64,000 nt of DNA, taken from NCBI GenBank assembly GCA_964016885.1, contig OZ024744.1, forward strand, positions 127,038,001-127,102,000, read 5' to 3'. This DNA is from Eledone cirrhosa (Eukaryota). The position numbers were made by a program, and so were the translations under genes. Positions 1 through 64,000 of the stretch are shown in pieces. Within the stretch, counting starts at the first letter, position 1. Each line of letters begins with the position of its first letter. The notes below the pieces were generated by a model. That model ran no database searches and was not told where the DNA came from. It was given only the letters and a program-made list of their open reading frames with translations.

Positions 1-2480
1 TTAAGTTGGGGTTAAGTTAAGTTGGGGTTAAGTTAAGTTGGGTTTAAGTTAAGTTGGGGCAAAGTTAAGTTGGGGCTAAGTTAAGTTGGGGCTGAGTTAA
101 GTTGGGGTTAAGTTAAGTTGGGGTTGAGTTAAGTTGGGGTTACGTTAAGTTAGGGTTGAGTTAAGTTGGGGTTGAGTTAAGTTGGGGTTGAGTTAAGTTG
201 GGGTTAAGTTAAGTTGGCGTTAAGTTAAGTTGGGGTTAAGTTAAGTTGGGGTTAAGTTAATTTGCGGTTAAGTTAGGTTGTGGGTTAAGTTAAGTTGGGG
301 TTAAGTTAAGCTGGGGTTAAGTTGGGGTAAGTTAAGTTGGGGTTAAGTTAAGTTGGGGTTAAGTTAAGTTGGGGTTAAGTTAAGTTGGGGGTAAGTTAAG
401 TTGGGGGCAATTTAAGTTGGGGTTAAGTTAAGTTGGGTTTAAGTTAAGTTGGGGTTAAGTTAAGTTGGGGTTAAGTTAAGTTGGGGTTAAGTTAAGTTAG
501 GGTTAATTTCAGTTGGGGTTTTGTTAAGTTGGGGTTAAGTTAAGTTGGGGTTAAGTTAAAGTTGGGGTTAAATTAAGTTGAGGTTAAGTTAAGTTGGGGT
601 TAAGTTAAATTGGGGTTAAGTCAAGTTGAGGTTAACTTAAGTTGGGGTTATGTTAAGTTGGGGTTAAGTTAAGTTCGGCTTGAGTTAAGTTGGGGTTAAG
701 TTAAGTTGGGGTTAATTTAAGTTGGGGTTAAGTTAAGTTGGGGTTAAGATAAGTTGGGGTTAAGTTAAGTTGGGGTTAAGTTAAGTTGGGGTTGAGTTAA
801 TTTGGGGTTAAGTTAAGTTGGGGTTAACTTAAGTTGGGGTTAAGTTGGGGTTAAGTTAAGTTGGGGTTAAGTTAAGTTGGGGGTAGGTTAAGTTGGGGGC
901 AATTTAAGTTGAGGTTAAGTTAAGTTGGGGTTAAGTTAAGTTGGGGTTAAGTTAAGTTGGGGTTAAGGTAAGTTGGGGTTAAGTTAAGTTAGGGTTAATT
1001 TCAGTTGGGGTTTTGTTAAGTTGGGGTTAAGTTAAGTTGGGGTTAAGTTAAAGTTGGGGTTAAGTTAAGTTGGGGTTAAGTTAAGTTAGGGGTAATTTCA
1101 GTTGGGGTTATGTTAAGTTGGGGTTAAGTTAAGTTGGGGTTAAGTTAAGTTGGGGGTAAGTTAAGTGGGGTGTAAGTTAAGTTGGGGTTAAGTTAAGTTG
1201 GGTTTCAGTTCAGTTGGGGTTAAGTTAAGTTGGGGTTAAGTTAAGCTGGGGGTAAGTTAAGTTGGGTGTAAGTTAAGTTGGGGTTAAGTTAAGTTGGGGT
1301 TAAGTTAAGTTGGGGGTTAGTTAAGTTGGGGGCAAGTTAAGTTGGGGTTAATTTAAGTTGGGGTTAAGTTAAGTTGGGGTTATGTTAAGTTGGGGTTAAG
1401 TTAAGTTGGGGGTAAGTTAAGTTGAGGGTAAGTTAAGTTGGGGTTAAGTTAAGTTGGGGTTAAATTAAGTTGGGGGTAAGTTAAGTTGGGGGTAAGTTAA
1501 GTTGGGGTTAAGTTAAGTTGGGGTTAAATTAAGTTGAGGTTAAGTTAAGTTGGGGTTAAGTTAAATTGGGGTTAATTTAAGTTGGGGGTAAGATAAGTTG
1601 GGGCTAAGTTAAGTTGGGGCTAAGTCAAGTTGGGGTTAAGTCAAGTTGAGGTTGAGTTAAGTTGGGGTTAAGTTAAGTTGGGATTAAGTTAAGTTGGGGT
1701 TAAGTTAAGTTCGGCTTGAGTTAAGTTGGGGTTAAGTTAAGTTGGGGTTAATTTAAGTTGGGGTTAAGTTAAGTTGGGGTTAAGATAAGTTGGGGCTGAG
1801 TTAAGTTGGGGTTAAGTTAAGTTGGGGTTATGTTAAGTTGGGGTTAAGTTGGGGCTAAGTTAAGTTGGGGCTGAGTTAAGTTGGGGTTAAGTTAAGTTGG
1901 GGTTGAGTTAAGTTGGGGTTAAGTTAAGTTGGGATTAAGTTAAGTTGGGGTTAAGTTAAGTTCGGCTTGAGTTAAGTTGGGGTTAAGTTAAGTTGGGGTT
2001 AATTTAAGTTGGGGTTAAGTTAAGTTGGGGTTAAGATAAGTTGGGGTTAAGTTAAGTTGGGGTTAATTTAAGTTGGGGTTGAGTTAATTTGGGGTTAAGT
2101 TAAGTTGGGGTTAACTTAAGTTGGGGTTAAGTTGGGGTTAAGTTAAGTTGGGGTTAAGTTAAGTTGGGTTTAAGTTAAGTTGGGGCAAAGTTAAGTTGGG
2201 GCTAAGTTAAGTTGGGGCTGAGTTAAGTTGGGGTTAAGTTAAGTTGGGGTTGAGTTAAGTTGGGGTTACGTTAAGTTAGGGTTGAGTTAAGTTGGGGTTG
2301 AGTTAAGTTGGGGTTGAGTTAAGTTGGGGTTAAGGTAAGTTGGCGTTAAGTTAAGTTGGCGTTAAGTTAAGTTGGGGTTAAGTTAAGTTGGGGTTAAGTT
2401 AATTTGCGGTTAAGTTAGGTTGTGGGTTAAGTTAAGTTGGGGTTAAGTTAAGCTGGGGTTAAGTTGGGGTAAGTTAAGTT
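1..2480 (+). repeat. Higher-order block copy A1 (paralogous to about 5255-7840)
   Basis: Rare variant GGGGCAAAG at C60 and C2186 recurs at C5314 and C7547 (offsets 5254 and 5361). TAAGGTAAGTTGGCG at 2331 recurs at 7692 (offset 5361). Confidence 0.85.
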
Positions 2481-7840: not shown

Positions 7841-10800
7841 TGGGGTTAAGTTAAGTTGGGGTTAAGTTAAGTTGGGGGTAAGTTAAGTTGGGGGCAATTT
7901 AAGTTGGGGTTAAGTTAAGTTGGGTTTAAGTTAAGTTGGGGTTAAGTTAAGTTGGGGTTAAGTTAAGTTCGGGTTAAGTTAAGTTAGGGTTAATTTCAGT
8001 TGGGGTTTTGTTAAGTTGGGGTTAAGTTAAGTTGGGGTTAAGTTAAAGTTGGGGTTAAGTTAAGTTGGGGTTAAGTTAAGTTAGGGGTAATTTCAGTTGG
8101 GGTTATGTTAAGTTGGGGTTAAGTTAAGTTGGGGTTAAGTTAAGTTGGGGGTAAGTTAAGTGGGGTGTGAGTTAAGTTGGGGTTAAGTTAAGTTGGGGTT
8201 CAGTTCAGTTGGGGTTAAGTTAAGTTGGGGTTAAGTTAAGTTGGGATTAAGTTAAGTTGGGGTTAAGTTAAGTTCGGCTTGAGTTAAGTTGGGGTTAAGT
8301 TAAGTTGGGGTTAATTTCAGTTGGGGTTAAGTTAAGTTGGGGTTAAGATAAGTTGGGGTTAAGTTAAGTTGGGGTTAAGTTAAGTTGGGGTTGAGTTAAT
8401 TTGGGGTTAAGTTAAGTTGGGGTTAACTTAAGTTGGGGTTAAGTTAAGTTGGGGTTAAGTTAAGTTGGGGGTAGGTTAAGTTGGGGGCAAGTTAAGTTTG
8501 GGTTAAGTTAAGTTGGGGTTAAGTTAAGTTGGGTTTAAGTTAAGTTGGGGCTAAGTTAAGTTGGGGCTAAGTTAAGTTGGGGCTGAGTTAAGTTGGGGTT
8601 AAGTTAAGTTGGGGTTGAGTTAAGTTGGGGTTATGTTAAGTTAGGGTTGAGTTAAGTTGGGGTTGAGTTAAGTTGGGGTTGAGTTAAGTTGGGGTTAAGT
8701 TAAGTTGGCGTTAAGTTAAGTTGGGGTTAAGTTAAATTGGGGTTAAGTTAAGTTGGGGTTAAGTTAGGTTGTGGGTTAAGTTAAGTTGGGGTTAAGTTAA
8801 GCTGGGGTTAAGTTGGGGTAAGTTAAGTTGGGGTAAGTTAAGTTGGGGTTAAGTTAAGTTGGGGTTAAGTTAAGTTGGGGTTAAGTTAAGTTGGGGTTGA
8901 GTTAAGTTGGGGTTGAGTTAAGTTGGGGTTAAGTTAAGTTGGGGTTAAGTTAAGTTGGGGTTAAGTTAAGTTGGGGGTAGCTTAAGTTGGGGGCAAGTTA
9001 AGTTGGGGTTAAGTTAAGTTGGGGTTAAGTTAAGTTGGGTTTAAGTTAAGTTGGGGCTAAGTTAAGTTGGGGCTAAGTTAAGTTGGGGCTGAGTTAAGTT
9101 GGGGTTAAGTTAAGTTGGGGTTGAGTTAAGTTGGGGTTATGTTAAGTTAGGGTTGAGTTAAGTTGGGGTTGAGTTAAGTTGGGGTTGAGTTAAGTTGGGG
9201 TTAAGTTAAGTTGGCGTTAAGTTAAGTTGGGGTTAAGTTAAGTTGGGGTTAATTAATTTGCGGTTAAGTTAGGTTGTGGGTTAAGTTAAGTTGGGGTTAA
9301 TTTAAGCTGGGGTTAAGTTGGAGTAAGTTAAGTTGGGGGTAAGTTAAGTTGGGGTTAAGTTAAGTTGGGGTTAAGGTAAGTTGGGGTTAAGTTAAGTTGG
9401 GGTTAAGTTAAGTTGGGGTTGAGTTAAGTTGGGGTTGAGTTAAGTTGGGGTTAAGTTAAGTTGGGGTTAAGTTAAGTTGGGGTTAAGTTAAGTTGGGGTT
9501 AAGTTAAGTTGGGGGTAAGTTAAGTTGGGGTTAAGTTAATTTGCGGTTAAGTTAGGTTGTGGGTTAAGTTAAGTTGGGGTTAAGTTAAGCTGGGGTTAAG
9601 TTGGGGTAAGTTAAGTTGGGGTTAAGTTGGGGTTAAGTTAAGTTGGGGGTAAGTTAAGTTGGGGGCAAGTTAAGTTGGGGTTAAGTTAAGTTGGGGTTAA
9701 GTTAAGTTGGGGTTAAGTTAAGTTGGGGTTAAGTTAAGTTGGGGTTAAGTTAAGTTGGGGTTAAGTTAAGTTGGGGTTAAGTTAAGTTAGGGTTAATTTC
9801 AGTTGGGGTTTTGTTAAGTTGGGGTTAAGTTAAGTTGGGGTTAAGTTAAAGTTGGGGTTAAGTTAAGTTGGGGTTAAGTTAAGTTAGGGTTAATTTCAGT
9901 TGGGGTTATGTTAAGTTGGGGTTAAGTTAAGTTGGGGTTAAGTTAAGTTGGGGTTAAGTTAAGTTGGGGTTATTTTAAGTTGGGGGTAAGTTAAGTTGAG
10001 GGTAAGTTAAGTTGGGGTTAAGTTAAGTTGGGGTTAAATTAAGTTGGGGGTAAGTTAAGTTGGGGGTATGTTAAGTTGGGGTTAAGTTAAGTTGGGGTTA
10101 AATTAAGTTGAGTTTAAGTTAAGTTGGGGTTAAGTTAAATTGGGGTTAATTTAAGTTGGGGGTAAGATAAGTTGGGGCTAAGTTAAGTTGGGGCTAAGTC
10201 AAGTTGGGGTTAAGTCAAGTTGAGGTTAACTTAAGTTGGGGTTATGTTAAGTTGGGGTTAAGTTGGGGCTAAGTTAAGTTAGGGCTGAGTTAAGTTGGGG
10301 TTAAGTTAAGTTGGGGTTGAGTTAAGTTGGGGTTAAGTTAAGTTGGGATTAAGTTAAGTTGGGGTTAAGTTAAGTTCCGCTTGAGTTAAGTTGGGGTTAA
10401 GTTAAGTTGGGGTTAATTTAAGTTGGGGTTAAGTTAAGTTGGGGTTAAGATAAGTTGGGGTTAAGTTAAGTTGGGGTTAAGTTAAGTTGGGGTTGAGTTA
10501 ATTTGGGGTTAAGTTAAGTTGGGGTTAACTTAAGTTGGGGTTAAGTTGGGGTTAAGTTAAGTTGGGGTTAAGTTAAGTTGGGGTTGAGTTAAGTTGGGGT
10601 TAAGTTAAGTTGGGGTTAAGTTAAGCTGGGGTTAAGTTGGGGTAAGTTAAGTTGGGGTAAGTTAAGTTGGGGTTAAGTTAAGTTGGGGTTAAGTTAAGTT
10701 GGGGTTAAGTTAAGTTGGGGTTAAGTTAAGTTGGGGTTGAGTTAAGTTGGGGTTAAGTTAAGTTGGGGTTAAGTTAAGTTGGGGTTCAGTTAAGTTGGGG

Positions 10801-22529: not shown

Positions 22530-25500
22530 TAAGTTGGGGGTAAGTTAAGTTGGGGGCAAGTTAAGTTGGGGTTAAGTTAAGTTGGGGTTAAGTTAAGTTG
22601 GGGTTAAGTTAAGTTGGGGTTAAGTTAAGTTAGGGTTAATTTCAGTTGGGGTTATGTTAAGTTGGGGTTAAGTTAAGTTGGGGTTAAGTTAAAGTTGGGG
22701 TTAAGTTAAGTTGGGGTTAAGTTAAGTTAGGGTTAATTTCATTGGGGTTATGTTAAGTTGGGGTTAAGTTAAGTTGGGGTTAAGTTAAGTTGGGGGTAAG
22801 TTAAGTGGGGTGTAAGTTAAGTTGGGGTTAAGTTAAGTTGGGGTTCAGTTCAGTTGGGGTTAAGTTAAGTTGGGGTTAAGTTAAGCTGGGGGTAAGTTAA
22901 GTTGGGTGTAAGTTAAGTTGGGGTTAAGTTAAGTTGGGGTTAAGTTAAGTTGGGGGTTAGTTAAGTTGGGGGCAAGTTAAGTTGGGGTTAATTTAAGTTG
23001 GGGTTAAGTTAAGCTGGGGTTATGTTAAGTTGGGGTTAAATTAAGTTGGGGTTAAGTTAAGTTGGGGGTAAGTTAAGTTGGGGTTAAGTTAAGTTGGGGG
23101 TAAGTTAAGTTGAGGGTAAGTTAAGTTGGGGTTAAGTTAAGTTGGGGTTAAATTAAGTTGGGGGTAAGTTAAGTTGGGGGTAAGTTAAGTTGGGGTTAAG
23201 GTAAGTTGGGGATAAATTAAGTTGAGGTTAAGTTAAGTTGGGGTTAAGTTAAATTGGGGTTAATTTAAGTTGGGGGTAAGATAAGTTGGGGCTAAGTTAA
23301 GTTGGGGCTAAGTCAAGTTGGGGTTAAGTCAAGTTGAGGTTAACTTAAGTTGGGGTTATGTTAAGTTGGGGTTAAGTTGGGGCTAAGTTAAGTTGGGGCT
23401 GAGTTAAGTTGGGGTTAAGTTAAGTTGGGGTTGAGTTAAGTTGGGGTTAAGTTAAGTTGGGATTAAGTTAAGTTGGGGTTAAGTTAAGTTCGGCTTGAGT
23501 TAAGTTGGGGTTAAGTTAAGTTGGGGTTAATTTAAGTTGGGGTTAAGTTAAGTTGGGGTTAAGATAAGTTGGGGTTAAGTTAAGTTGGGGTTAAGTTAAG
23601 TTGGGGTTGAGTTAATTTGGGGTTAAGTTAAGTTGGGGTTAACTTAAGTTGGGGTTAACTTAAGTTGGGCTTAAGTTGGGGTTAAGTTAAGTTGGGGTTA
23701 AGTTAAGTTGGGGGTAGGTTAAGTTGGGGGCAAGTTAAGTTGGGGTTAAGTTAAGTTGGGGTTAAGTTAAGTTGGGGTTAAGTTAAGTTGGGGGTAAGTT
23801 AAGTTGGGGTTAAGTTAAGTTGGGGTTAAGTTAAGTTGGGTTTAAGTTAAGTTGGGGCTAAGTTAAGTTGGGGCTAAGTTAAGTTGGGGCTGAGTTAAGT
23901 TGGGGTTAAGTTAAGTTGGGGTTGAGTTAAGTTGGGGTTATGTTAAGTTAGGGTTGAGTTAAGTTGGGGTTGAGTTAAGTTGGGGTTGAGTTAAGTAGGG
24001 GTTAAGTTAAGTTGGCGTTAATTTAAGTTGGGGTTAAGTTAAGTTGGGGTCAAGTTAATTTGCGGTTAAGTTAGGTTGTGGGTTAAGTTAATTTGGGGTT
24101 AAGTTAAGCTGGGGTTAAGTTGGGGTAAGTTAAGTTGGGGGTAAATTAAGTTGGGGTTAAGTTAAGTTGGGGTTAAGTTAAGTTGGGGTTGAGTTAAGTT
24201 GGGGTTGAGTTAAGTTGGGGTTGAGTTAAGTTGGGGTTGAGTTAAGTTGGGGTTAAGTTAAGTTGGGGTTAAGTTAAGTTGGGAGTAAGTTAAGTTGGGG
24301 TTAAGTTAAGTTGGGGTTAAGTTAAGTTGGGGTTAAGTTAAGTTGGGGTTAAGTTAAGTTGGGGTTAAGTTAAGTTGGGGGTTAGTTAAGTTGGGGGCAA
24401 GTTAAGTTGGGGTTAATTTAAGTTGGGGTTAAGTTAAGTTGGGGTTATGTTAAGTTGGGGTTAAGTTAAGTTGGGGTTAAGTTAAGTTGGGGGTAAGTTA
24501 AGTTGGGGTTAAGTTAAGTTGGGGGTAAGTTAAGTTGAGGGTAAGTTAAGTTGGGGTTAAGTTAAGTTGGGGTTAAATTAAGTTGGGGGTAAGTTAAGTT
24601 GGGGGTAAGTTAAGTTGGGGTTAAGTTAAGTTGGGGTTAAATTAAGTTGAGGTTAAGTTAAGTTGGGGTTAAGTCAAGTTGAGGTTAACTTAAGTTGGGG
24701 TTATGTTAAGTTGGGGTTAAGTTGGGGCTAAGTTAAGTTGGGGCTGAGTTAAGTTGGGGTTAAGTTAAGTTGGGGTTGAGTTAAGTTGGGGTTAAGTTAA
24801 GTTGGGATTAATTTAAGTTGGGGTTAAGTTAAGTTCGGCGTGAGTTAAGTTGGGGTTAAGTTAAGTTGGGGTTAATTTAAGTTGGGGTTAAGTTAAGTTG
24901 GGGTTAAGATAAGTTGGGGTTAAGTTAAGTTGGGGTTAAGTTAAGTTGGGGTTGAGTTAATTTGGGGTTAAGTTAAGTTGGGGTTAACTTAAGTTGGGGT
25001 TAAGTTGGGGTTAAGTTAAGTTGGGGTTAAGTTAAGTTGGGGTTGAGTTAATTTGGGTTTAAGTTAAGTTGGGCTTAACTTAAGTTGGGGTTAAGTTGGG
25101 GTTAAGTTAAGTTGGGGTTAAGTTAAGTTGGGGGTAAGTTAAGTTGGGGGCAAGTTAAGTTGGGGTTAATTTAAGTTGGGGTTAAGTTAAGTTGGGGTTA
25201 TGTTAAGTTGGGGTTAAGTTAAGTTGGGGTTAAGTTAAGTTGGGGGTAACTTAAGTTGGGGTTAAGTTAAGTTGAGGGTAAGTTAAGTTGAGGGTAAGTT
25301 AAGTTGAGGTTAAGTTAAGTTGGGGTTAAGTTAAGTTGGGGGTAAGTTAAGTTGGGGGTAAGTTAAGTTGGGGTTAAGTTAAGTTGGGGTTAAATTAAGT
25401 TGAGGTTAAGTTAATTTGGGGTTAAGTTAAGTTGGGGTTAAGTTAAGTTGGGGTTAAGTTAAGTTGGGGTTAAGTTAAGTTGGGGGTTAGTTAAGTTGGG

Positions 25501-26530
25501 GGCAAGTTAAGTTGGGGTTAATTTAAGTTGGGGTTAAGTTAAGTTGGGGTTATGTTAAGTTGGGGTTAAATTAAGTTGGGGTTAAGTTAAGTTGGGGGTA
25601 AGTTAAGTTGGGGTTAATTTAAGTTGGGGGTAAGTTAAGTTGAGGGTAAGTTAAGTTGGGGTTAAGTTAAGTTGGGGTTAAATTAAGTTGGGGGTAAGTT
25701 AAGTTGGGGGTAAGTTAAGTTGGGGTTAAGTTAAGTTGGGGTTAAGTTAAATTGGGGTTAATTTAAGTTGGGGGTAAGATAAGTTGGGGCTAAGTTAAGT
25801 TGGGGCTAAGTCAAGTTGGGGTTAAGTCAAGTTGAGGTTAACTTAAGTTGGGGTTATGTTAAGTTGGGGTTAAGTTGGGGCTAAGTTAAGTTTGGGCTGA
25901 GTTAAATTGGGGTTAAGTTAAGTTGGGGTTGAGTTAAGTTGGGGTTAAGTTAAGTTGGGATTAAGTTAAGTTGGGGTTAAGTTAAGTTCGGCTTGAGTTA
26001 AGTTGGGGTTAAGTTAAGTTGGGGTTAATTTAAGTTGGGGTTAAGTTAATTTGGGGTTAAGATAAGTTGGGGTTAAGTTAAGTTGGGGTTAAGTTAAGTT
26101 GGGGTTGAGTTAATTTGGGGTTAAGTTAAGTTGGGGTTAACTTAAGTTGGGGTTAACTTAAGTTGGGGTTAAGTTGGGGTTAAGTTAAGTTGGGGTTAAG
26201 TTAAGTTGGGGGTAGGTTAAGTTGGGGGCAAGTTAAGTTGGGGTTAAGTTAAGTTGGGGTTAAGTTAAGTTGGGGGTAAGTTAAGTTGGGGTTAAGTTAA
26301 GTTGGGGTTAAGTTAAGTTGGGTTTAAGTTAAGTTGGGGCTAAGTTAAGTTGGGGCTAAGTTAAGTTGGGGCTGAGTTAAGTTGGGGTTACGTTAAGTTG
26401 GGGTTGAGTTGAGTTGGGGTTATGTTAAGTTAGGGTTGAGTTAAGTTGGGGTTGAGTTAAGTTGGGGTTGAGTTAAGTAGGGGTTAAGTTAAGTTGGCGT
26501 TAATTTAAGTTGGGGTTAAGTTAAGTTGGG
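22530..26530 (+). repeat. About 4-kb higher-order block copy B1
   Basis: Private markers GGGGATAAATTAAG (23212), TTCGGCGTGAG (24836), TTTGGGCTGAG (25891) and TTACG..GAGTTGAG (26391) recur at 27601, 29113, 30168 and 30668. Confidence 0.9.
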
Positions 26531-39800: not shown

Positions 39801-42800
39801 AAGTTGGGGTTAAGTTAAGTTGGGGTTGAGTTAAGTTGGGGTTATGTTAAGTTAGGGTTGAGTTAAGTTGGGGTTGAGTTAAGTTGGGGTTGAGTTAAGT
39901 AGGGGTTAAGTTAAGTTGGCGTTAATTTAAGTTGGGGTTAAGTTAAGTTGGGGTCAAGTTAATTTGCGGTTAAGTTAGGTTGTGGGTTAAGTTAATTTGG
40001 GGTTAAGTTAAGCTGGGGTTAAGTTGGGGTAAGTTAAGTTGGGGGTAAATTAAGTTGGGGTTAAGTTAAGTTGGGGTTAAGTTAAGTTGGGGTTAAGTTA
40101 AGTTGGGGGTTAGTTAAGTTGGGGGCAAGTTAAGTTGGGGTTGAGTTAAGTTGGGGTTGAGTTAAGTTGGGGTTGAGTTAAGTTGGGGTTAAGTTAAGTT
40201 GGGGTTAAGTTAAGTTGGGGGTTAGTTAAGTTGGGGTTGAGTTAAGTTGGGGTTGAGTTAAGTTGGGGTTGAGTTAAGTTGGGGTTGAGTTAAGTTGGGG
40301 TTAAGTTAAGTTGGGGTTAAGTTAAGTTGGGGGTAAGTTAAGTTGGGGTTAAGTTAAGTTGGGGTTAAGTTAAGTTGGGGTTAAGTTAAGTTGGGGTTAA
40401 GTTAAGTTGGGGTTAAGTTAAGTTGGGGGTTAGTTAAGTTGGGGGCAAGTTAAGTTGGGGTTAATTTAAGTTGGGGTTAAGTTAAGTTGGGGTTATGTTA
40501 AGTTGGGGTTAAGTTAAGTTGGGGTTAAGTTAAGTTGGGGGTAAGTTAAGTTGGGGTTAAGTTAAGTTGGGGGTAAGTTAAGTTGAGGGTAAGTTAAGTT
40601 GGGGTTAAGTTAAGTTGGGGTTAAATTAAGTTGGGGGTAAGTTAAGTTGGGGGTAAGTTAAGTTGGGGTAAAGTTAAGTTAGGGTTAAGTTAAGTTGGGG
40701 TTAAGTTAAGTTGGGGTTAAATTAAGTTGGGGTTAAGTTAAGTTGGGGTTAAGTTAAGTTGGGGTTAAATTAAGTTGGGGTTAAGTTAAGTTGGGGTTAA
40801 ATTAAGTTGGGGTTAAGTTAAGTTGGGGTTAGTTAAGTTGGGGTTAAGTTAAGTTGGGGGTAAGTTAAGTGGGGTGTAAGTTAAGTTGGGGTTAAGTTAA
40901 GTTGGGGTTCAGTTCAGTTGGGGTTATGTTAAGTTGGGGTTAAGTTAAGCTGGGGGTAAGTTAAGTCGGGTGTAAGTTAAGTTGGGGTTAAGTTAAGTTG
41001 GGGTTAAGTTAAGTTGGGGGTTAGTTAAGTTGGGGGCAAGTTAAGTTGGGGTTATGTTAAGTTGGGGTTAAGTTAAGTTGGGGTTAAGTTAAGTTGGGGG
41101 TAAGTTAAGTTGGGGTTAAGTTAAGTTGGGGGTAAGTTAAGTTGAGGGTAAGTTAAGTTGGGGTTAAGTTAAGTTGGGGTTAAATTAAGTTGGGGGTAAG
41201 TTAAGTTGGGGGTAAGTTAAGTTGGGGTTAAGTTAAGTTGGGGTTAAATTAAGTTGAGGTTAAGTTAAGTTGGGGTTAAGTTAAATTGGGGTTAATTTAA
41301 GTTGGGGGTAAGATAAGTTGGGGTTAAGTTAAGTTGGGGTTAAGATAAGTTGGGGTTAAGTTAAGTTGGGGTTAAGTTAAGTTGGGGTTGAGTTAATTTG
41401 GGGTTAAGTTAAGTTGGGGTTAAGTTAAGTTGGGGTTAAGTTGGGGTTAAGTTAAGTTGGGGTTAAGTTAATTTGGGGGTAGGTTAAGTTGGGGGCAATT
41501 TAAGTTGGGGTTAAGTTAAGTTGGGGTTAAGTTAAGTTGGGTTTAAGTTAAGTTGGGGCTAAGTTAAGTTGGGGCTAAGTTAAGTTGGGGCTGAGTTAAG
41601 TTGGGGTTAAGTTAAGTTGGGGTTGAGTTAAGTTGGGGTTATGTTAAGTTAGGGTTGAGTTAAGTTGGGGTTGAGTTAAGTTGGGGTTGAGTTAAGTTGG
41701 GGTTAAGTTAAGTTGGCGTTAAGTTAAGTTGGGATTAAGTTAAGTTGGGGTTAAGTTAATTTGCGGTTAAGTTAGGTTGTGGGTTAAGTTAAGTTGGGGT
41801 TAAGTTAAGCTGGGGTTAAGTTGGGGTAAGTTAAGTTGGGGTTAAGTTAAGTTGGGGTTAAGTTAAGTTGGGGTTAAGTTAAGTTGGGGTTAAGTTAAGT
41901 TGGGGTTGAGTTAAGTTGGGGTTGAGTTAAGTTGGGGTTAAGTTAAGTTGGGGTTAAGTTAAGTTGGGGTTAAGTTAAGTTGGGGGTAAGTTAAGTTGGG
42001 GTTAAGTTAATTTGCGGTTAAGTTAGGTTGTGGGTTAAGTTAAGTTGGGGTTAAGTTAAGCTGGGGTTAAGTTGGGGTAAGTTAAGTTGGGGTTAAGTTA
42101 AGTTGGGGTTAAGTTAAGTTGGGGTTAAATTAAGTTGGGGTTAAGTTAAGTTGGGGTTATGTTAAGTTGGTGTTAAGTTAAGTTGCGGTTAAGTTAAGTT
42201 GGGGTTAAGTTAAGTTGGGGTTAAGTTAAGTTGGGGTTAAGTTAAGTTGGAGTTAAGTTAAGTTGGGGTTAACTTAAGTTGGGGTTAAGTTGGGGTTAAG
42301 TTAAGTTGGGGTTAAGTTAAGTTGGGGGTTAGTTAAGTTGGGGGCAAGTTAAGTTGGGGTTAATTTAAGTTGGGGTTAAGTTAAGTTGGGGTTATGCTAA
42401 GTTGAGGTTAAGTTAAGTTGGGGTTAAGTTAAGTTGGGGGTAAGTTAAGTTGGGGTTAAGTTAAGTTGGGGGTAAGTTAAGTTGGGGGTAAGTTAAGTTG
42501 AGGGTAAGTTAAGTTGGGGTTAAGTTAAGTTGGGGTTAAATTGAGTTGGGGGTAAGTTAAGTTGGGGGTAAGTTAAGTTGGGGTTAAGTTAAGTTGGGGT
42601 TAAGTTAAGTTGGGGTTAAGTTAAGGTGGGGGTAAGTTAAGTTGGGGTTAAGTTAATTTGCGGTTAAGTTAGGTTGTGGGTTAAGTTAAGTTGGGGTTAA
42701 GTTAAGCTGGGGTTAAGTTGGGGTAAGTTAAGTTGGGGTTAAGTTAAGTTGGGGTTAAGTTAAGTTGGGGTTAATTTAAGTTGGGGGTAAGTTAAGTTGG

Positions 42801-45800
42801 GGTTAAGTTAAGTTGGGGTTAAGTTAAGTTGGGGTTAAGTTAAGTTGGGGGTAAGATAAGTTGGGGCTAAGTTAAGTTGGGGCTAAGTCAAGTTGGGGTT
42901 AAGTCAAGTTGAGGTTAACTTAAGTTGGGGTTAAGTTAAGTTGGGGTTAAGTTAAGTTGGGGTTAAGGTAAGTTGGGGTTAAGTTAAGTTGGGGCTAAGT
43001 TAAGTTGGGGCTAAGTTAAGTTGGGGCTGAGTTAAGTTGGGGTTAAGTTGGGGTTGAGTTAATTTGGGGTTAAGTTAAGTTGGGATTAAGTTAAGTTGGG
43101 GTTAAGTTAAGTTCGGGTTGAGTTAAGTTGGGGTTAAGTTAAGTTGGGGTTAATTTAAGTTGGGGTTAAGTTAAGTTGGGGTTAAGATAAGTTGGGGTTA
43201 AGTTAAGTTGGGGTTAAGTTAAGTTGGGGTTGAGTTAATTTGGGGTTAAGTTAAGTTGGGGTTAACTTAAGTTGAGGTTAAGTTAAGTTGGGGCTAAGTT
43301 AAGTTGGGGCTGAGTTAAGTTGGGGTTAAGTTAAGTTGGGGTTGAGTTAAGTTGGGGTTATGTTAAGTTAGGGTTGAGTTAAGTTGGGGTTGAGTTAAGT
43401 TGGGGTTGAGTTAAGTTGGGGTTAAGTTAAGTTGGCGTTAAGTTAAGTTGGGATTAAGTTAAGTTGGGGTTAAGTTAATTTGCGGTTAAGTTAGGTTGTG
43501 GGTTAAGTTAAGTTGGGGTTAAGTTAAGCTGGGGTTAAGTTGGGGTAAGTTAAGTTGGGGTTAAGTTAAGTTGAGGTTAAGTTAAGTTGGGGTTAAGTTA
43601 AATTGGGGTTAATTTAAGTTGGGGGTAAGATAAGTTGGGGTTAAGTTAAGTTGGGGTTAAGATAAGTTGGGGTTAAGTTAAGTTGGGGTTAAGTTAAGTT
43701 GGGGTTGAGTTAATTTGGGGTTAAGTTAAGTTGGGGTTAAGTTGGGGTTAAGTTAAGTTGGGGTTAAGTTAATTTGGGGGTAGGTTAAGTTGGGGGCAAT
43801 TTAAGTTGGGGTTAAGTTAAGTTGGGGTTAAGTTAAGTTGGGTTTAAGTTAAGTTGGGGCTAAGTTAAGTTGGGGCTAAGTTAAGTTGGGGCTGAGTTAA
43901 GTTGGGGTTAAGTTAAGTTGGGGTTGAGTTAAGTTGGGGTTATGTTAAGTTAGGGTTGAGTTAAGTTGGGGTTGAGTTAAGTTGGGGTTGAGTTAAGTTG
44001 GGGTTAAGTTAAGTTGGCGTTAAGTTAAGTTGGGATTAAGTTAAGTTGGGGTTAAGTTAATTTGCGGTTAAGTTAGGTTGTGGGTTAAGTTAAGTTGGGG
44101 TTAAGTTAAGCTGGGGTTAAGTTGGGGTAAGTTAAGTTGGGGTTAAGTTAAGTTGGGGTTAAGTTAAGTTGGGGTTAAGTTAAGTTGGGGTTAAGTTAAG
44201 TTGGGGTTGAGTTAAGTTGGGGTTGAGTTAAGTTGGGGTTAAGTTAAGTTGGGGTTAAGTTAAGTTGGGGTTAAGTTAAGTTGGGGGTAAGTTAAGTTGG
44301 GGTTAAGTTAATTTGCGGTTAAGTTAGGTTGTGGGTTAAGTTAAGTTGGGGTTAAGTTAAGCTGGGGTTAAGTTGGGGTAAGTTAAGTTGGGGTTAAGTT
44401 AAGTTTGGGTTAAGTTAAGTTGGGGTTAAATTAAGTTGGGGTTAAGTTAAGTTGGGGTTATGTTAAGTTGGGGTTAAGTTAAGTTGCGGTTAAGTTAAGT
44501 TGGGGTTAAGTTAAGTTGGGGTTAAGTTAAGTTGGGGTTAAGTTAAGTTGGAGTTAAGTTAAGTTGGGGTTAACTTAAGTTGGGGTTAAGTTGGGGTTAA
44601 GTTAAGTTGGGGTTAAGTTAAGTTGGGGGTTAGTTAAGTTGGGGGCAAGTTAAGTTGGGGTTAATTTAAGTTGGGGTTAAGTTAAGTTGGGGTTATGCTA
44701 AGTTGGGGTTAAGTTAAGTTGGGGTTAAGTTAAGTTGGGGTTAAGTTAAGTTGGGGTTAAGTTAAGTTGGGGGTAAGTTAAGTTGGGGGTAAGTTAAGTT
44801 GAGGGTAAGTTAAGTTGGGGTTAAGTTAAGTTGGGGTTAAATTGAGTTGGGGGTAAGTTAAGTTGGGGGTAAGTTAAGTTGGGGTTAAGTTAAGTTGGGG
44901 TTAAGTTAAGTTGGGGTTAAGTTAAGTTGGGGTTAAGTTAAGGTGGGGGTAAGTTAAGTTGGGGTTAAGTTAATTTGCGGTTAAGTTAGGTTGTGGGTTA
45001 AGTTAAGTTGGGGTTAAGTTAAGCTGGGGTTAAGTTGGGGTAAGTTAAGTTGGGGTTAAGTTAAGTTGGGGTTAAGTTAAGTTGGGGTTAAGTTAAGTTG
45101 GGGGTAAGTTAAGTTGGGGTTAAGTTAAGTTGGGGTTAAGTTAAGTTGGGGTTAAGTTAAGTTGGGGGTAAGATAAGTTGGGGCTAAGTTAAGTTGGGGC
45201 TAAGTCAAGTTGGGGTTAAGTCAAGTTGAGGTTAACTTAAGTTGGGGTTAAGTTAAGTTGGGGTTAAGTTAAGTTGGGGTTAAGGTAAGTTGGGGTTAAG
45301 TTAAGTTGGGGCTAAGTTAAGTTGGGGCTAAGTTAAGTTGGGGCTGAGTTAAGTTGGGGTTAAGTTGGGGTTGAGTTAATTTGGGGTTAAGTTAAGTTGG
45401 GATTAAGTTAAGTTGGGGTTAAGTTAAGTTCGGGTTGAGTTAAGTTGGGGTTAAGTTAAGTTGGGGTTAATTTAAGTTGGGGTTAAGTTAAGTTGGGGTT
45501 AAGATAAGTTGGGGTTAAGTTAAGTTGGGGTTAAGTTAAGTTGGGGTTGAGTTAATTTGGGGTTAAGTTAAGTTGGGGTTAAATTAAGTTGGGGGTAAGT
45601 TAAGTTGGGTGCAAGTTGAGTTGGGGTTAAGTTAAGTTGGGGTTAAGTTAAGGTGGGGGTAAGTTAAGTTGGGGGTAAGTTAAGTTGGGGTTAAGTTAAG
45701 TTGGGGTTAAGTTAAGTTGGGTTTAAGTTAAGTTGGGGCTAAGTTAAGTTGGGGCTAAGTTAAGTTGGGGCTGAGTTAAGTTGGGGTTAAATTAAGTTGG

Positions 45801-48800
45801 GGGTAAGTTAAGTTGGGGGTAAGTTAAGTTGGGGTTAAGTTAAGTTGGGGTTAAATTAAGTTGAGGTTAAGTTAAGTTGGGGTTAAGTTAAATTGGGGTT
45901 AATTTAAGTTGGGGGTAAGATAAGTTGGGGCTAAGTTAAGTTGGGGCTAAGTCAAGTTGGGGTTAAGTCAAGTTGAGGTTAACTTAAGTTGGGGTTATGT
46001 TAAGTTGGGGTTAAGTTGGGGCTAAGTTAAGTTGGGGCTGAGTTAAGTTGGGGTTAAGTTAAGTTGGGGTTGAGTTAAGTTGGGGTTAAGTTAAGTTGGG
46101 ATTAAGTTAAGTTGGGGTTAAGTTAAGTTCGGCTTGAGTTAAGTTGGGGTTAAGTTAAGTTGGGGTTAATTTAAGTTGGGGTTAAGTTAAGTTGGGGTTA
46201 AGATAAGTTGGGGTTAAGTTAAGTTGGGGTTAAGTTAAGTTGGGGTTGAGTTAATTTGGGGTTAAGTTAAGTTGGGGTTAACTTAAGTTGGGGTTAACTT
46301 AAGTTGGGGTTAAGTTGGGGTTAAGTTAAGTTGGGGTTAAGTTAAGTTGGGGGTAGGTTAAGTTGGGGGCAAGTTAAGTTGGGGTTAAGTTAAGTTGGGG
46401 TTAAGTTAAGTTGGGGGTAAGTTAAGTTGGGGTTAAGTTAAGTTGGGGTTAAGTTATGTTGGGTTTAAGTTAAGTTGGGGCTAAGTTAAGTTGGGGCTAA
46501 GTTAAGTTGGGGCTGAGTTAAGTTGGGGTTAAGTTAAGTTGGGGTTGAGTTAAGTTGGGGTTATGTTAAGTTAGGGTTGAGTTAAGTTGGGGTTGAGTTA
46601 AGTTGGGGTTGAGTTAAGTAGGGGTTAAGTTAAGTTGGCGTTAATTTAAGTTGGGGTTAAGTTAAGTTGGGGTCAAGTTAATTTGCGGTTAAGTTAGGTT
46701 GTGGGTTAAGTTAATTTGGGGTTAAGTTAAGCTGGGGTTAAGTTGGGGTAAGTTAAGTTGGGGGTAAATTAAGTTGGGGTTAAGTTAAGTTGGGGTTAAG
46801 TTAAGTTGGGGTTAAGTTAAGTTGGGGGTTAGTTAAGTTGGGGGCAAGTTAAGTTGGGGTTGAGTTAAGTTGGGGTTGAGTTAAGTTGGGGTTGAGTTAA
46901 GTTGGGGTTAAGTTAAGTTGGGGTTAAGTTAAGTTGGGGGTTAGTTAAGTTGGGGTTGAGTTAAGTTGGGGTTGAGTTAAGTTGGGGTTGAGTTAAGTTG
47001 GGGTTGAGTTAAGTTGGGGTTAAGTTAAGTTGGGGTTAAGTTAAGTTGGGGGTAAGTTAAGTTGGGGTTAAGTTAAGTTGGGGTTAAGTTAAGTTGGGGT
47101 TAAGTTAAGTTGGGGTTAAGTTAAGTTGGGGTTAAGTTAAGTTGGGGGTTAGTTAAGTTGGGGGCAAGTTAAGTTGGGGTTAATTTAAGTTGGGGTTAAG
47201 TTAAGTTGGGGTTATGTTAAGTTGGGGTTAAGTTAAGTTGGGGTTAAGTTAAGTTGGGGGTAAGTTAAGTTGGGGTTAAGTTAAGTTGGGGGTAAGTTAA
47301 GTTGAGGGTAAGTTAAGTTGGGGTTAAGTTAAGTTGGGGTTAAATTAAGTTGGGGGTAAGTTAAGTTGGGGGTAAGTTAAGTTCGGGTAAAGTTAAGTTA
47401 GGGTTAAGTTAAGTTGGGGTTAAGTTAAGTTGGGGTTAAATTAAGTTGGGGTTAAGTTAAGTTGGGGTTAAGTTAAGTTGGGGTTAAATTAAGTTGGGGT
47501 TAAGTTAAGTTGGGGTTAAATTAAGTTGGGGTTAAGTTAAGTTGGGGTTAGTTAAGTTGGGGTTAAGTTAAGTTGGGGGTAAGTTAAGTGGGGTGTAAGT
47601 TAAGTTGGGGTTAAGTTAAGTTGGGGTTCAGTTCAGTTGGGGTTATGTTAAGTTGGGGTTAAGTTAAGCTGGGGGTAAGTTAAGTCGGGTGTAAGTTAAG
47701 TTGGGGTTAAGTTAAGTTGGGGTTAAGTTGGGGGTTAGTTAAGTTGGGGGCAAGTTAAGTTGGGGTTATGTTAAGTTGGGGTTAAGTTAAGTTGGGGTTA
47801 AGTTAAGTTGGGGGTAAGTTAAGTTGGGGTTAAGTTAAGTTGGGGGTAAGTTAAGTTGAGGGTAAGTTAAGTTGGGGTTAAGTTAAGTTGGGGTTAAATT
47901 AAGTTGGGGGTAAGTTAAGTTGGGGGTAAGTTAAGTTGGGGTTAAGTTAAGTTGGGGTTAAATTAAGTTGAGGTTAAGTTAAGTTGGGGTTAAGTTAAAT
48001 TGGGGTTAATTTAAGTTGGGGGTAAGATAAGTTGGGGTTAAGTTAAGTTGGGGTTAAGATAAGTTGGGGTTAAGTTAAGTTGGGGTTAAGTTAAGTTGGG
48101 GTTGAGTTAATTTGGGGTTAAGTTAAGTTGGGGTTAAGTTAAGTTGGGGTTAAGTTGGGGTTAAGTTAAGTTGGGGTTAAGTTAATTTGGGGGTAGGTTA
48201 AGTTGGGGGCAATTTAAGTTGGGGTTAAGTTAAGTTGGGGTTAAGTTAAGTTGGGTTTAAGTTAAGTTGGGGCTAAGTTAAGTTGGGGCTAAGTTAAGTT
48301 GGGGCTGAGTTAAGTTGGGGTTAAGTTAAGTTGGGGTTGAGTTAAGTTGGGGTTATGTTAAGTTAGGGTTGAGTTAAGTTGGGGTTGAGTTAAGTTGGGG
48401 TTGAGTTAAGTTGGGGTTAAGTTAAGTTGGCGTTAAGTTAAGTTGGGATTAAGTTAAGTTGGGGTTAAGTTAATTTGCGGTTAAGTTAGGTTGTGGGTTA
48501 AGTTAAGTTGGGGTTAAGTTAAGCTGGGGTTAAGTTGGGGTAAGTTAAGTTGGGGTTAAGTTAAGTTGGGGTTAAGTTAAGTTGGGGTTAAGTTAAGTTG
48601 GGGTTAAGTTAAGTTGGGGTTGAGTTAAGTTGGGGTTGAGTTAAGTTGGGGTTAAGTTAAGTTGGGGTTAAGTTAAGTTGGGGTTAAGTTAAGTTGGGGG
48701 TAAGTTAAGTTGGGGTTAAGTTAATTTGCGGTTAAGTTAGGTTGTGGGTTAAGTTAAGTTGGGGTTAAGTTAAGCTGGGGTTAAGTTGGGGTAAGTTAAG

Positions 48801-51300: not shown

Positions 51301-51359
51301 TGAGTTAAGTTGGGGTTAAGTTAAGTTGGGGTTAAGTTAAGTTGGGGGTAAGTTAAGTT

Positions 51360-61500: not shown

Positions 61501-64000
61501 TAAGTTGGGGTTAAGTTAAGTTAGGGTTAAGTTAAGTTGGGGTTAAATTAAGTTGGGGTTAAGTTAAGTTGGGGTTATGTTAAGTTGGGGTTAAGTTAAG
61601 TTGCGGTTAAGTTAAGTTGGGGTTAAGTTAAGTTGGGGTTAAGTTAAGTTGGGGTTAAGTTAAGTTGGAGTTAATTTAAGTTGGGGTTAACTTAAGTTGG
61701 GGTTAAGTTGGGGTTAAGTTAAGTTGGGGTTAAGTTAAGTTGGGGGTTAGTTAAGTTGGGGGCAAGTTAAGTTGGGGTTAATTTAAGTTGGGGTTAAGTT
61801 AAGTTGGGGTTATGCTAAGTTGGGGTTAAGTTAAGTTGGGGTTAAGTTAAGTTGGGGGTAAGTTAAGTTGGGGTTAAGTTAAGTTGGGGGTAAGTTAAGT
61901 TGTGGGTAAGTTAAGTTGAGGGTAAGTTAAGTTGGGGTTAAGTTAAGTTGGGGTTAAATTGAGTTGGGGGTAAGTTAAGTTGGGGGTAAGTTAAGTTGGG
62001 GTTAAGTTAAGTTGGGGTTAAGTTAAGTTGGGGTTAAGTTAAGGTGGGGGTAAGTTAAGTTGGGGTTAAGTTAATTTGCGGTTAAGTTAGGTTGTGGGTT
62101 AAGTTAAGTTGGGGTTAAGTTAAGCTGGGGTTAAGTTGGGGTAAGTTAAGTTGGGGTTAAGTTAAGTTGGGGTTAAGTTAAGTTGGGGTTAAGTTAAGTT
62201 GGGGGTAAGTTAAGTTGGGGTTAAGTTAAGTTGGGGTTAAGTTAAGTTGGGGTTAAGTTAAGTTGGGGGTAAGATAAGTTGGGGCTAAGTTAAGTTGGGG
62301 CTAAGTCAAGTTGGGGTTAAGTCAAGTTGAGGTTAACTTAAGTTGGGGTTAAGTTAAGTTGGGGTTAAGTTAAGTTGGGGTTAAGGTAAGTTGGGGTTAA
62401 GTTAAGTTGGGGCTAAGTTAAGTTGGGGCTAAGTTAAGTTGGGGCTGAGTTAAGTTGGGGTTAAGTTGGGGTTGAGTTAATTTGGGGTTAAGTTAAGTTG
62501 GGATTAAGTTAAGTTGGGGTTAAGTTAAGTTCGGGTTGAGTTAAGTTGGGGTTAAGTTAAGTTGGGGTTAATTTAAGTTGGGGTTAAGTTAAGTTGGGGT
62601 TAAGATAAGTTGGGGTTAAGTTAAGTTGGGGTTAAGTTAAGTTGGGGTTGAGTTAATTTGGGGTTAAGTTAAGTTGGGGTTAACTTAAGTTTGGGTTAAG
62701 TTAAGTTGGGGTTAAATTAAGTTGGGGGTAAGTTAAGTTGGGTGCAAGTTGAGTTGGGGTTAAGTTAAGTTGGGGTTAAGTTAAGGTGGGGGTAAGTTAA
62801 GTTGGGGGTAAGTTAAGTTGGGGTTAAGTTAAGTTGGGGTTAAGTTAAGTTGGGTTTAAGTTAAGTTGGGGCTAAGTTAAGTTGGGGCTAAGTTAAGTTG
62901 GGGCTGAGTTAAGTTGGGGTTAACTTAAGTTGGGGTTAAGTTGGGGTTAAGTTAAGTTGGGGTTAAATTAAGTTGGGGGTTAGTTAAGTTGGGGCAAGTT
63001 AAGTTGGGGTTAATTTAAGTTGGGGTTAAGTTAAGTTGGGGTTAAATTAAGTTGGGGTTAAGTTAAGTTGGGGTTGAGGTAAGTTGGGGTTATGTTAAGT
63101 TGGGGCTAAGTTAAGTTGGGGCTAAGTTAAGTTGGGGCGGAGTTAAGTTGGGGTTAAGTTAAGTTGGGGTTGAGTTAAGTTGGGGTTAAGTTAAGTTGGG
63201 ATTAAGTTAAGTTGGGGTTAAATTAAGTTCGGCTTGAGTTAAGTTGGGGTTAAGTTAAGTTGGGGTTAAGTTAAGTTGGGGTTAAGATAAGTTGGGGTTA
63301 AGTTAAGTTGGGGTTAAGTTAAGTTTGGGTTGAGTTAATTTGGGGTTAAGTTAAGTTGGGGTTAACTTAAGTTGGGGTTAAGTTGGGGTTAAGTTAAGTT
63401 GGGGTTATGTTAAGTTGGGGGTAGGTTAAGTTGGGGGCAAGTTAAGTTGGGGTTAAGTTAAGTTGGGGTTAAGTTAAGTTGGGTTTAAGTTAAGTTGGGG
63501 CTAAGTTAAGTTGGGGCTAAGTTAAGTTGGGGCTGAGTTAAGTTGGGGTTAAGTTAAGTTGGGGTTGAGTTAAGTTGGGGTTATGTTAAGTTAGGGTTGA
63601 GTTAAGTTGGGGTTGAGTTAAGTTGGGGTTGAGTTAAGTTGGGGTTAAGTTAAGTTGGCGTTAAGTTAAGTTGGGGTTAAGTTAAGTTGGGGTTAAGTTA
63701 ATTTGCGGTTAAGTTAGGTTGTGGGTTAAGTTAAGTTGGGGTTAAGTTAAGCTGGGGTTAAGTTGGGGTAAGTTAAGTTGGGGTTAAGTTAAGTTGGGGT
63801 TAAGTTAAGTTGGGGTTGAGTTAAGTTGGGGTTGAGTTAAGTTGTGGTTGAGTTAAGTTGGGGTTACGTTAAGTTGGGGTTAAGTTAAGTTGGGGTTAAG
63901 TTAAGTTGGGGGTAGCTTAAGTTGGGGGCAAGTTAAGTTGGGGTTAAGTTAAGTTGGGTTTAAGTTAAGTTGGGGCTAAGTTAAGTTGGGGCTAAGTTAA

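What the first reader, a model, noticed from the sequence alone, without database searches (positions are those of the whole stretch)
1..64000. Compound telomere-like 16-mer (TTAAG)2-TTGGGG forming a pure array of at least 64 kb
Seen: the monomer is two TTAAG units plus TTGGGG, with a strict G-rich/C-poor strand bias and one orientation throughout. Known: TTGGGG is the Tetrahymena telomeric repeat, TTAAG is one substitution from the arthropod TTAGG, and compound motifs such as TTAGGTTGGGG are telomeric in bumblebees. The 11-mer variant here, TTAAGTTGGGG, is one base from that motif. Inference: this may be a non-canonical telomeric repeat, or a satellite derived from one (subtelomeric, interstitial or centromeric). 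I do not recognise the 16-mer as a described motif. If it is terminal, the orientation puts the chromosome end to the right.
Basis: partly seen in the sequence, partly recalled or inferred. Interest (0 to 1): 0.75.

Follow-up and report, generated by a model that had tools for sequence, protein, structure and literature searches.

The report
Octopus megabase satellite, not a telomere
The 16-letter repeat is real, but it fills an 8.4-million-base block inside a chromosome of what is likely an octopus whose assembled chromosome ends carry the ordinary animal telomere repeat, so it is satellite DNA that likely grew by repeated duplication, possibly from a short tract of the same repeat that sits behind broken ribosomal-RNA genes nearby.

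Summary
Observation confirmed; the telomere reading is not supported. The window holds 4,047 monomers of TTAAGTTAAGTTGGGG in one orientation, but only 36% are perfect, and variant order recurs in kilobase duplications, which points to recombination rather than telomerase. It lies near the left edge of an 8.38-Mb array on C28 that stops 1.15 Mb before the assembled end and holds inverted blocks. Of 39 chromosome ends tallied, 10 carry the canonical animal hexamer pointing outward and 0 carry the 16-mer. Hemocyanin genes point to an octopod. Other arrays lie mid-chromosome on C2 and C3 and internally on C18; three variant searches found none on other chromosome-scale contigs. This scan reported the same array before from other windows (e1-10311131, e1-10311083). 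Not seen in the earlier notes shown to me: a 14-copy tract of the 16-mer lies 1.4 kb behind the 28S end in defective rDNA units and shares a double variant and a neighbouring module with the C2 array; the left edge breaks into a zinc-finger repeat at a junction also present on C18; forward-to-reverse switches fall at TTAA. Centromere role and direction of origin are untested.

The parts
1..64000 (+). 16-bp satellite, 4,047 monomers, G-rich strand on +; the window is G000:C28:127,038,001-127,102,000, 70.5 kb inside the left edge of an array that runs from C28:126,967,457 to about 135,348,073
   Evidence: window; place; edges; interior sampled at intervals, not read through
38841..41010 (+). Near-exact duplication of about 2.2 kb; partner 6,719 bases further on
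   Evidence: (block at 40001 has a 99.9% copy at +6719)
45560..47729 (+). Partner of 38841-41010
   Evidence: (block at 46001 has a 100% copy at -6719)
23617..25617 (+). Near-exact duplication of about 2.0 kb; partner 4,277 bases further on
   Evidence: (block at 24001, 99.9%)
27894..29894 (+). Partner of 23617-25617
   Evidence: (block at 28001, 100%)
1278..2359 (+). Duplication of about 1.1 kb with partner 5,361 bases further on
   Evidence: (block at 6001, 99.6% at -5361)
9681..9776 (+). Longest run of perfect monomers in the window (6 copies)

Best explanation
This is part of an 8.4-Mb internal satellite array of a 16-bp monomer, not a chromosome end, in what is likely an octopod genome; it likely grew by repeated kilobase duplications and likely acts as passive heterochromatin in a repeat-rich region. 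Shown: internal position, a different repeat at chromosome ends, recurring variant order, inverted blocks whose forward-to-reverse switch lies at the monomer's palindromic TTAA, and an array edge with its flank present on two chromosomes. Inferred: unequal exchange or template-switching replication makes the duplications; fold-back at TTAA makes the inversions, which are then copied along; segmental duplication carried the repeat between C28 and C18. Inferred, weaker: the seed was a short tract of 14-16 monomers next to a 196/227-bp repeat module, the form still seen in the spacer of defective rDNA units (C28, C18) and in the 520-bp composite on C2, and the long arrays arose by amplifying the tract and losing the module. 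Deeper descent from the telomere hexamer is plausible but not shown.
For: Position. Ends: 10 of 39 carry the hexamer outward, 0 of 39 the 16-mer. Purity: hexamer-capped ends are 67-100% perfect units, the window 36%. Duplication: 36% of 20-monomer strings recur against 0 in 20 order shuffles; 17 of 32 one-kb blocks tested have a copy of at least 700 bp at 97% or more elsewhere in the window; near-identical copies of window 240-700 were all on C28 within 1.3 Mb (40 of 1,865 candidates scored). Inversions: 13 of 14 forward-to-reverse switches found in the C28 loci scanned have just TTAA between the two G/C tracts, the other has it doubled; the return junction recurs at 131, 132, 132.4 and 135 Mb. 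Shared junction: the C28 left edge cuts a degenerate C2H2 zinc-finger repeat, and the same junction with about 6 kb of flank at 92-97% identity lies on C18 at 4.80 Mb; uninterrupted paralogues lie nearby. Seed form: 14-copy tracts in 3 of 3 rDNA-derived units read at that place (L171, L189, L193) are followed by the 196-bp-family module in the same orientation as in the C2 composite; the double variant at monomer positions 9 and 14 is in 20% of 735 C2 monomers and 3 of 42 tract monomers, and rounds to 0.000 in 14,751 monomers of the long arrays.
Against: Passivity is assumed: no chromatin, CENP-A or expression data. Mean identity to one consensus is nearly the same (0.942-0.954) in all 12 groups sampled on four chromosomes, which could mean constraint by a binding protein or simply similar age. 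The double variant links the spacer tract to C2, not to the long arrays that hold this window. The rDNA units read are defective mosaics, so the tract may be a later insertion; in runs X5 and X6 the contigs that carry the second spacer variant stop matching 32 bases before the tract. The ZNF junction was not bridged by any record listed, and the C18 copy begins at a scaffold gap, so it may be a misplaced piece. The C28 end is not resolved to a telomere.
Confidence: 0.7

Rival explanations
1. The 16-mer is a heterochromatic interstitial telomeric sequence that diverged: a degenerate hexamer tract became a 32-bp hexamer-phased satellite and then the 16-mer. This concerns ultimate origin and is compatible with the best explanation.
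For: On C3 the array directly abuts about 240 kb of degenerate hexamer. A more diverged 32-bp sister satellite made of the same two modules flanks both C28 arrays and occurs at the C2 edge; it is closer to the 16-mer (9.5 edits, 0 of 600 shuffles) and to the hexamer array (10.5 edits, 1.3% of 600 shuffles) than shuffles of itself. The module that spaces the C2 composite also punctuates the C3 hexamer tract in the same orientation to the G strand.
Against: The 16-mer needs 5 edits per unit to match the hexamer array; 11.5% of 3,000 same-composition shuffles do as well (0.4% of random 16-mers). No run of two hexamers occurs in the window. On C3 the two arrays point in opposite directions with a sharp junction and no gradient. 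The three 32-mer tests were not corrected for multiple testing.
Confidence: 0.4
2. The 16-mer array is, or contains, the functional centromere of C28 and perhaps of C2, C3 and C18.
For: Megabase size, higher-order duplications, diverged sister satellite at the edge. Arrays at 50% of C2 and 49% of C3, two of the four giant chromosomes. An AT-rich 37-46-bp satellite flanks the C2 array and is interspersed in the C28 array.
Against: Found on only four chromosome-scale contigs, so it cannot be the general centromere repeat. C1 has no four-copy match but does have a 196-bp-family array of at least 200 kb from 279.7 Mb. C18 and C28 each have two separate arrays. Earlier notes favour the AT-rich or 196-bp families; I checked those only in part.
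Confidence: 0.17
3. The 16-mer is a compound telomerase repeat like the bumblebee 11-mer, and the window is a telomere.
For: G-rich strand bias and modular look; on C28 the G strand points mostly to the nearer end; 29 of 39 tallied ends reach no telomere repeat at all, C28's two ends among them.
Against: Internal arrays with non-telomeric DNA on both sides; hexamer at all 10 ends that reach a telomere-type repeat; inherited variant order and inversions, which telomerase does not write (established knowledge); mollusc, not insect.
Confidence: 0.02
4. The array or its length is an assembly artefact.
For: Three array edges end at 200-N gaps (C3 right, C18 at 4.79 Mb, C28 at 124.69 Mb); the best public holders may be the assembly's own sample.
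Against: 159 distinct monomers in ordered, region-specific patterns; very deep contig coverage and raw reads of another study on the repeat; the main C28 array has gap-free junctions at both edges.
Confidence: 0.03

Closest known systems
Heterochromatic interstitial telomeric sequences (het-ITS), e.g. Chinese hamster (PMC6410037, passages of section 2.1 and others)
   Same: Megabase internal block of G-rich telomere-like repeat, beside other satellites, at mid-chromosome sites; amplification by unequal crossing-over or slippage proposed.
   Different: Het-ITS consist of the organism's own telomere repeat; this monomer is 5 edits per unit away and the window has no tandem hexamers. The adjacent C3 tract, not the 16-mer, is the true het-ITS.
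rDNA intergenic-spacer-derived satellites: tomato (PMC2679016) and characiform As51 (PMC13170303); abstracts and outlines seen
   Same: A spacer subrepeat also forms long arrays elsewhere; in tomato the route passes through defective rDNA arrays that lose coding sequence, as the units beside this array have.
   Different: In those cases the subrepeat is shown in canonical spacers; here it is shown only in defective units, and the monomer is 16 bp and telomere-like.
Bombus compound telomere repeat (PMC9841428 and PMC10767889, passages)
   Same: An 11-nt variant in the window (about 150 copies) differs from it by one base; pentamer plus G-tract build.
   Different: The bumblebee motif is terminal by FISH, made in TRAP assays and templated by a telomerase RNA; this repeat is internal, in a mollusc whose ends carry the hexamer.
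Human acrocentric short arms (PMC10172130, abstract and outline) and HSat2/3-type short-period satellites (recalled)
   Same: rDNA-related arrays next to large short-period satellites, with segments shared between non-homologous chromosomes (here C18 and C28).
   Different: The rDNA here is defective, and exchange between C18 and C28 rests on one assembly; no population data.
Pol I terminator / fork-barrier repeats (mammalian Sal boxes bound by TTF-1, fission-yeast Reb1 sites; PMC5368702, passages)
   Same: Short repeated elements downstream of the large-subunit rRNA end; the tract here lies 1.4 kb behind the 28S end, directly after a T run.
   Different: No binding protein, no transcript end and no intact rDNA unit were examined; sequence likeness to those sites was not tested.

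Membership tests
Telomerase-synthesised telomeric repeat | Arrays at chromosome ends, G strand outward | tested here: not met
   0 of 39 tallied ends hold a 16-mer; 10 of 39 hold the hexamer outward. One more end (C20 start, 2 kb) holds neither. Both ends of C21-C26 and the far ends of C20 and C27 were not read.
Telomerase-synthesised telomeric repeat | Near-perfect single-orientation repeats without inherited variant order | tested here: not met
   36% perfect, kilobase duplications, inversions
Telomerase-synthesised telomeric repeat | TERT present and a telomerase RNA whose template matches the repeat | tested here: inconclusive
   Pfam PF12009 search found no match among 13 candidates, in an intron-rich genome and with no positive control; no template search was run
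Telomerase-synthesised telomeric repeat | BAL31 sensitivity, TRAP product, terminal FISH signal | not testable with these tools
   bench tests
Satellite DNA with higher-order structure | Long head-to-tail array of a diverging monomer | tested here: met
Satellite DNA with higher-order structure | Multi-monomer blocks more alike than monomers are to each other | tested here: met
   periods vary (0.8-6.8 kb and more), so there is no single fixed higher-order unit
Satellite DNA with higher-order structure | Array- or region-specific variant spectra | tested here: met
   spectra change along C28 and differ between C2, C3 and C18
het-ITS | Internal array made of the organism's telomere repeat or its direct variants | tested here: not met
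   no tandem hexamers in the window; 5 edits per unit, matched by 11.5% of shuffles
het-ITS | Large internal block at pericentromeric or fusion sites | tested here: inconclusive
   internal and mid-chromosome on C2 and C3; centromeres and fusion points not located
Centromeric satellite | One array on most or all chromosomes | tested here: not met
   matches listed only on C2, C3, C18 and C28; each listing stops at 100 rows, so unplaced scaffolds were not seen and arrays under about 100 kb could be missed
Centromeric satellite | CENP-A binding or methylation dip | not testable with these tools
   no chromatin data
rDNA-spacer-derived satellite | Monomer present as a subrepeat in an rDNA spacer | tested here: inconclusive
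   present in 3 of 3 defective units read at that place; no intact unit read; read-laying mixed
rDNA-spacer-derived satellite | Spacer form older or more widespread among relatives than the long arrays | not tested
   no related genomes are held; X6 contigs cover tract and module at similar low depth but none bridges them

The most novel reading that the evidence does not exclude
The 16-mer is the RNA polymerase I terminator and fork-barrier element of octopus rDNA, a Sal-box-like tract that a Myb/telobox protein reads, and it escaped from the spacer to become an 8-Mb telomere-like satellite that now binds that protein and organises the nucleolar and centromeric end of chromosome C28.
Probability: 0.08. 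Interest if true: 0.7.

Novelty: new member of a known kind. Interest (0 to 1): 0.3.

Why it matters
As a telomere claim it fails, and satellites of this kind are common. Its value is practical and local. Cephalopod centromeres and satellites appear little described (searches listed no paper on them by title), and this repeat gives a chromosome-restricted FISH and ChIP target on four chromosomes. The genome keeps several stages of one repeat side by side (14-copy tract, 520-bp composite, 32-bp sister, megabase array), with readable junctions, so the origin of a satellite can be tested by comparing relatives. It is also a caution for telomere-motif mining from reads: an abundant G-rich compound repeat can mimic an insect-type telomere in an animal with ordinary telomeres.

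Tried and rejected
TERT search: no match and no positive control, so uninformative. Rfam on the composite modules: only hairpin-driven microRNA matches far below their gathering scores; rejected. Coding potential: longest stop-free run 29 aa on + and 31 aa on -; rejected. G-quadruplex argument: mean G4Hunter-type score 1.08 against 1.50 for a terminal hexamer array; 6% of windows reach 1.5; weak and not used. Head-to-head telomere fusion at the C3 junction: the two G strands point away from the junction, not towards it; rejected. First guess that C28:124.7-126.3 Mb is an intact rDNA array: the unit read has only the 18S start and the 28S end around about 9 kb of scrambled fragments; rejected. 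DNA searches with the window and with the C2 spacer returned only local copies because 40 candidates are scored; they do not map distribution. Runs X4-X13 hold only 0.05-0.15 of the words; X4 and X5 show exact low-depth copies that may be carry-over, so they are not used as evidence of conservation. No genome-wide map of the telomere hexamer was obtained; the statement on ends rests on ends read directly. The 11-mer as a search term gave 9 papers, none on repeats by title (listing only). No supplements were opened; genome-paper supplements could hold satellite tables that I did not see.
Full report
Observation. The whole window is one tandem array of period 16. Decomposition gives 4,047 monomers, 1,443 of them perfect, 3,717 of full length at 94.7% mean identity, 150 eleven-mers and 159 distinct monomers. 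The unit occurs 1,443 times against 0 in 20 dinucleotide shuffles. The strand bias is as described: 907 C in 64,000 bases and no inverted copy. There is no open frame over 31 codons.

Place. The window is C28:127,038,001-127,102,000 of a 2,996-Mb assembly; C28 is 136,499,333 bases. The array starts at 126,967,457 and ends at about 135,348,073, 8.38 Mb in all, 1.15 Mb short of the assembled end, which finishes in an unrelated 30-bp repeat. I sampled the interior at intervals and did not read it through; every sample held the 16-mer, in places alternating with an AT-rich 37-bp-family satellite. A 5-kb sample at 133.0 Mb is wholly inverted and short inverted blocks occur at 128.66, 131, 132, 132.4, 135.0 and 135.35 Mb.

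Chromosome ends. Of 39 ends tallied (20 starts, 19 ends of chromosome-scale contigs), 10 consist of the canonical animal hexamer with the G strand outward and none holds a copy of the 16-mer; 29 reach neither. The C20 start also holds neither; 14 ends of C20-C27 were not read, and the lengths of C21-C26 were not seen. The capped ends are 67-100% perfect units, eight of ten above 90%, against 36% here. A cuttlefish genome paper names this hexamer as the only experimentally determined cephalopod telomere motif (PMC13218726, passages; its source, Adachi et al. 2014, not seen). A TERT search was uninformative.

Animal. The genome has molluscan hemocyanin genes (39 matches; one C1 gene shows seven units in a row). 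The best single-unit match is PDB 1js8 (855 bits) ahead of 4yd9_C (738); that these are octopus and squid proteins, and that octopods have seven units, is recalled. The mitochondrion reads in table 5 with nad2-cox1-cox2-atp8-atp6-like frames (gene names are my reading of the translations apart from COX1). An octopod is likely; I did not go further.

How it grows. Variant order is inherited: 36% of 20-monomer strings recur in the window against none in 20 order shuffles, and 17 of 32 one-kb blocks have a copy of 97-100% elsewhere in the window at varying distances. Variant spectra shift along C28 and differ between chromosomes while the consensus stays the same. In the C28 loci scanned, 13 of 14 forward-to-reverse switches have exactly TTAA between the G tract and its complement, and one return junction recurs over 4 Mb, which fits fold-back at the palindrome followed by passive copying (inference). 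The C3 junction with the hexamer tract also falls at TTAA.

Distribution. The four-copy pattern has 7,737 forward and 1,030 reverse matches, none on C1. Three single-variant 32-base patterns listed matches on C2, C3, C18 and C28 only; one search's list stops within C18, reach C28 and show nothing on C19-C27; C3's 0.6-Mb array gave 12, 1 and 24 matches, which sets the sensitivity; unplaced scaffolds were never reached. Arrays: C3 184,769,169-185,379,739, abutting about 240 kb of degenerate hexamer in the opposite orientation and ending at a gap; C2 about 209.196-209.875 Mb, a 520-bp composite of 15.6 monomers and a 270-bp spacer; C18 4,790,118-4,801,871 and 9,896,550-10,533,207; C28 124,599,482-124,691,518, mostly inverted.

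Edges. The left edge of the main array cuts a degenerate C2H2 zinc-finger repeat; the same junction with about 6 kb of flank at 92-97% lies on C18, and uninterrupted paralogues lie within 50 kb of it. No listed contig bridges the junction. The right edge passes through a short inverted block into 24 kb of a 32-bp satellite (72-75% matches) and then a non-LTR retroelement frame. The 32-mer also flanks the 124.6-Mb array and appears at the C2 edge. It is related to the 16-mer (0 of 600 shuffles as close) and weakly to the hexamer (1.3%), whereas the 16-mer itself is no closer to the hexamer than 11.5% of its shuffles.

The short-tract form. The C2 spacer, a module that punctuates the C3 hexamer tract, a 196-bp unit and a 227-bp satellite of unplaced scaffolds share one module; a 22-base piece of it has 18,414 matches, the first 100 on C1 from 279.70 Mb. 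A search with the 196-bp piece gave 39 identical copies on C28 between 124.69 and 126.30 Mb, mostly 30-70 kb apart, and one on C18, among 40 of 1,140 candidates scored. One such unit read in full has the 18S start, about 9 kb of scrambled rRNA fragments and the 28S end: a defective rDNA unit, as earlier notes of this scan say. In it, 1.4 kb behind the 28S end and just after a T run, stand 14 copies of the 16-mer followed by the 196-bp module. The same tract is in a second C28 unit (identical) and in a C18 unit. Its last monomer carries a double variant found in 20% of C2 monomers and in effect absent from the long arrays. In run X1 two variants of about equal depth cover the 28S end (3,979 and 3,609) and the spacer to about 60 bases before the tract (3,841 and about 3,700); the second may be intact rDNA (inference), but the rows shown do not say whether it enters the tract, and in X5 and X6 contigs with that variant stop matching 32 bases before it. 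So the link of tract, module and C2 composite is shown; that the spacer is the source, or that intact rDNA has the tract, is not.

Comparison and verdict. It works like a short-period satellite with irregular higher-order duplications; it fails the membership tests for a telomerase repeat, for a het-ITS in the strict sense and for a general centromere repeat. The closest precedents are het-ITS (PMC6410037, passages) and rDNA-spacer-derived satellites (PMC2679016, PMC13170303, abstracts); the bumblebee motif (passages) is a look-alike. I found no description of this monomer in the searches (listings only; the library lacks most subscription journals). The scan's own earlier reports on other windows of this array reached the same verdict on telomeres. 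A new satellite of a known kind, interest 0.3; the terminator-origin reading is open at about 8%.

Noticed in passing
G000:C28 (whole contig): C28 (136 Mb) stands out of size order after C27 (22 Mb), as sex chromosomes often do in assemblies, and four of the five positions sampled outside the array region between its start and 123 Mb were other tandem satellites (48, 68, 51, 64 bp). Sex-chromosome status is a guess.
   Followed up: no
L185-L189 (C28:125,029,001-125,075,000): Defective rDNA macro-unit of about 45 kb: 18S start, about 9 kb of 54- and 317-bp mosaics of rRNA fragments, 28S end, 16-mer tract, inverted 196-bp repeats; short hexamer-like tracts also lie in the unit. Pieces at 97-99% identity lie on C18 at 6.72-6.75 Mb.
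   Followed up: partly
L095-L098, L105-L107, L164 (C3:184.53-184.77 Mb): About 240 kb of degenerate telomere hexamer at the middle of a giant chromosome, punctuated near its right end every 1.3-2.5 kb by a 196/227-family module; a possible fusion scar.
   Followed up: partly
L195, L197, L194, L196 (C1:279.6-279.9 Mb): 196-bp satellite array of at least 200 kb next to a 20-bp satellite; related 20-bp repeats occur at the C2 array edge and in the C3 hexamer tract, so four chromosomes share a set of repeats.
   Followed up: partly
L183 (C625), C1125: Unplaced scaffolds carrying a 227-bp satellite at 99% identity, related to the 196-bp family.
   Followed up: partly
L056 (C19 end), L045 (C7 end): Assembled ends in other pentamer-built, telomere-looking satellites (25/50-bp and 33-bp periods), each on a chromosome whose other end has the true hexamer.
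   Followed up: no
L085, L152, L153, L160, L161: Clusters of degenerate C2H2 zinc-finger repeats with 61-, 72- and 100-bp minisatellites, shared between C28 (126.93-126.97 Mb) and C18 (4.80-4.85 Mb).
   Followed up: partly
L112:2940-6325; L155, L156: Non-LTR retroelement frame (endonuclease, reverse transcriptase, zinc-binding domain) just beyond the right edge of the C28 array; related elements (73-74%) lie left of the C18 array.
   Followed up: partly
C1:173.75-173.91 Mb, C26:21.93-22.02 Mb, C27:0.06 Mb: At least five hemocyanin genes in two clusters, the C26 pair inverted and near-identical, plus two divergent units on C27.
   Followed up: no
C2:345.14, 115.16-115.18, 206.20, 163.79 Mb: Nuclear copies of mitochondrial cox1 of different ages.
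   Followed up: no
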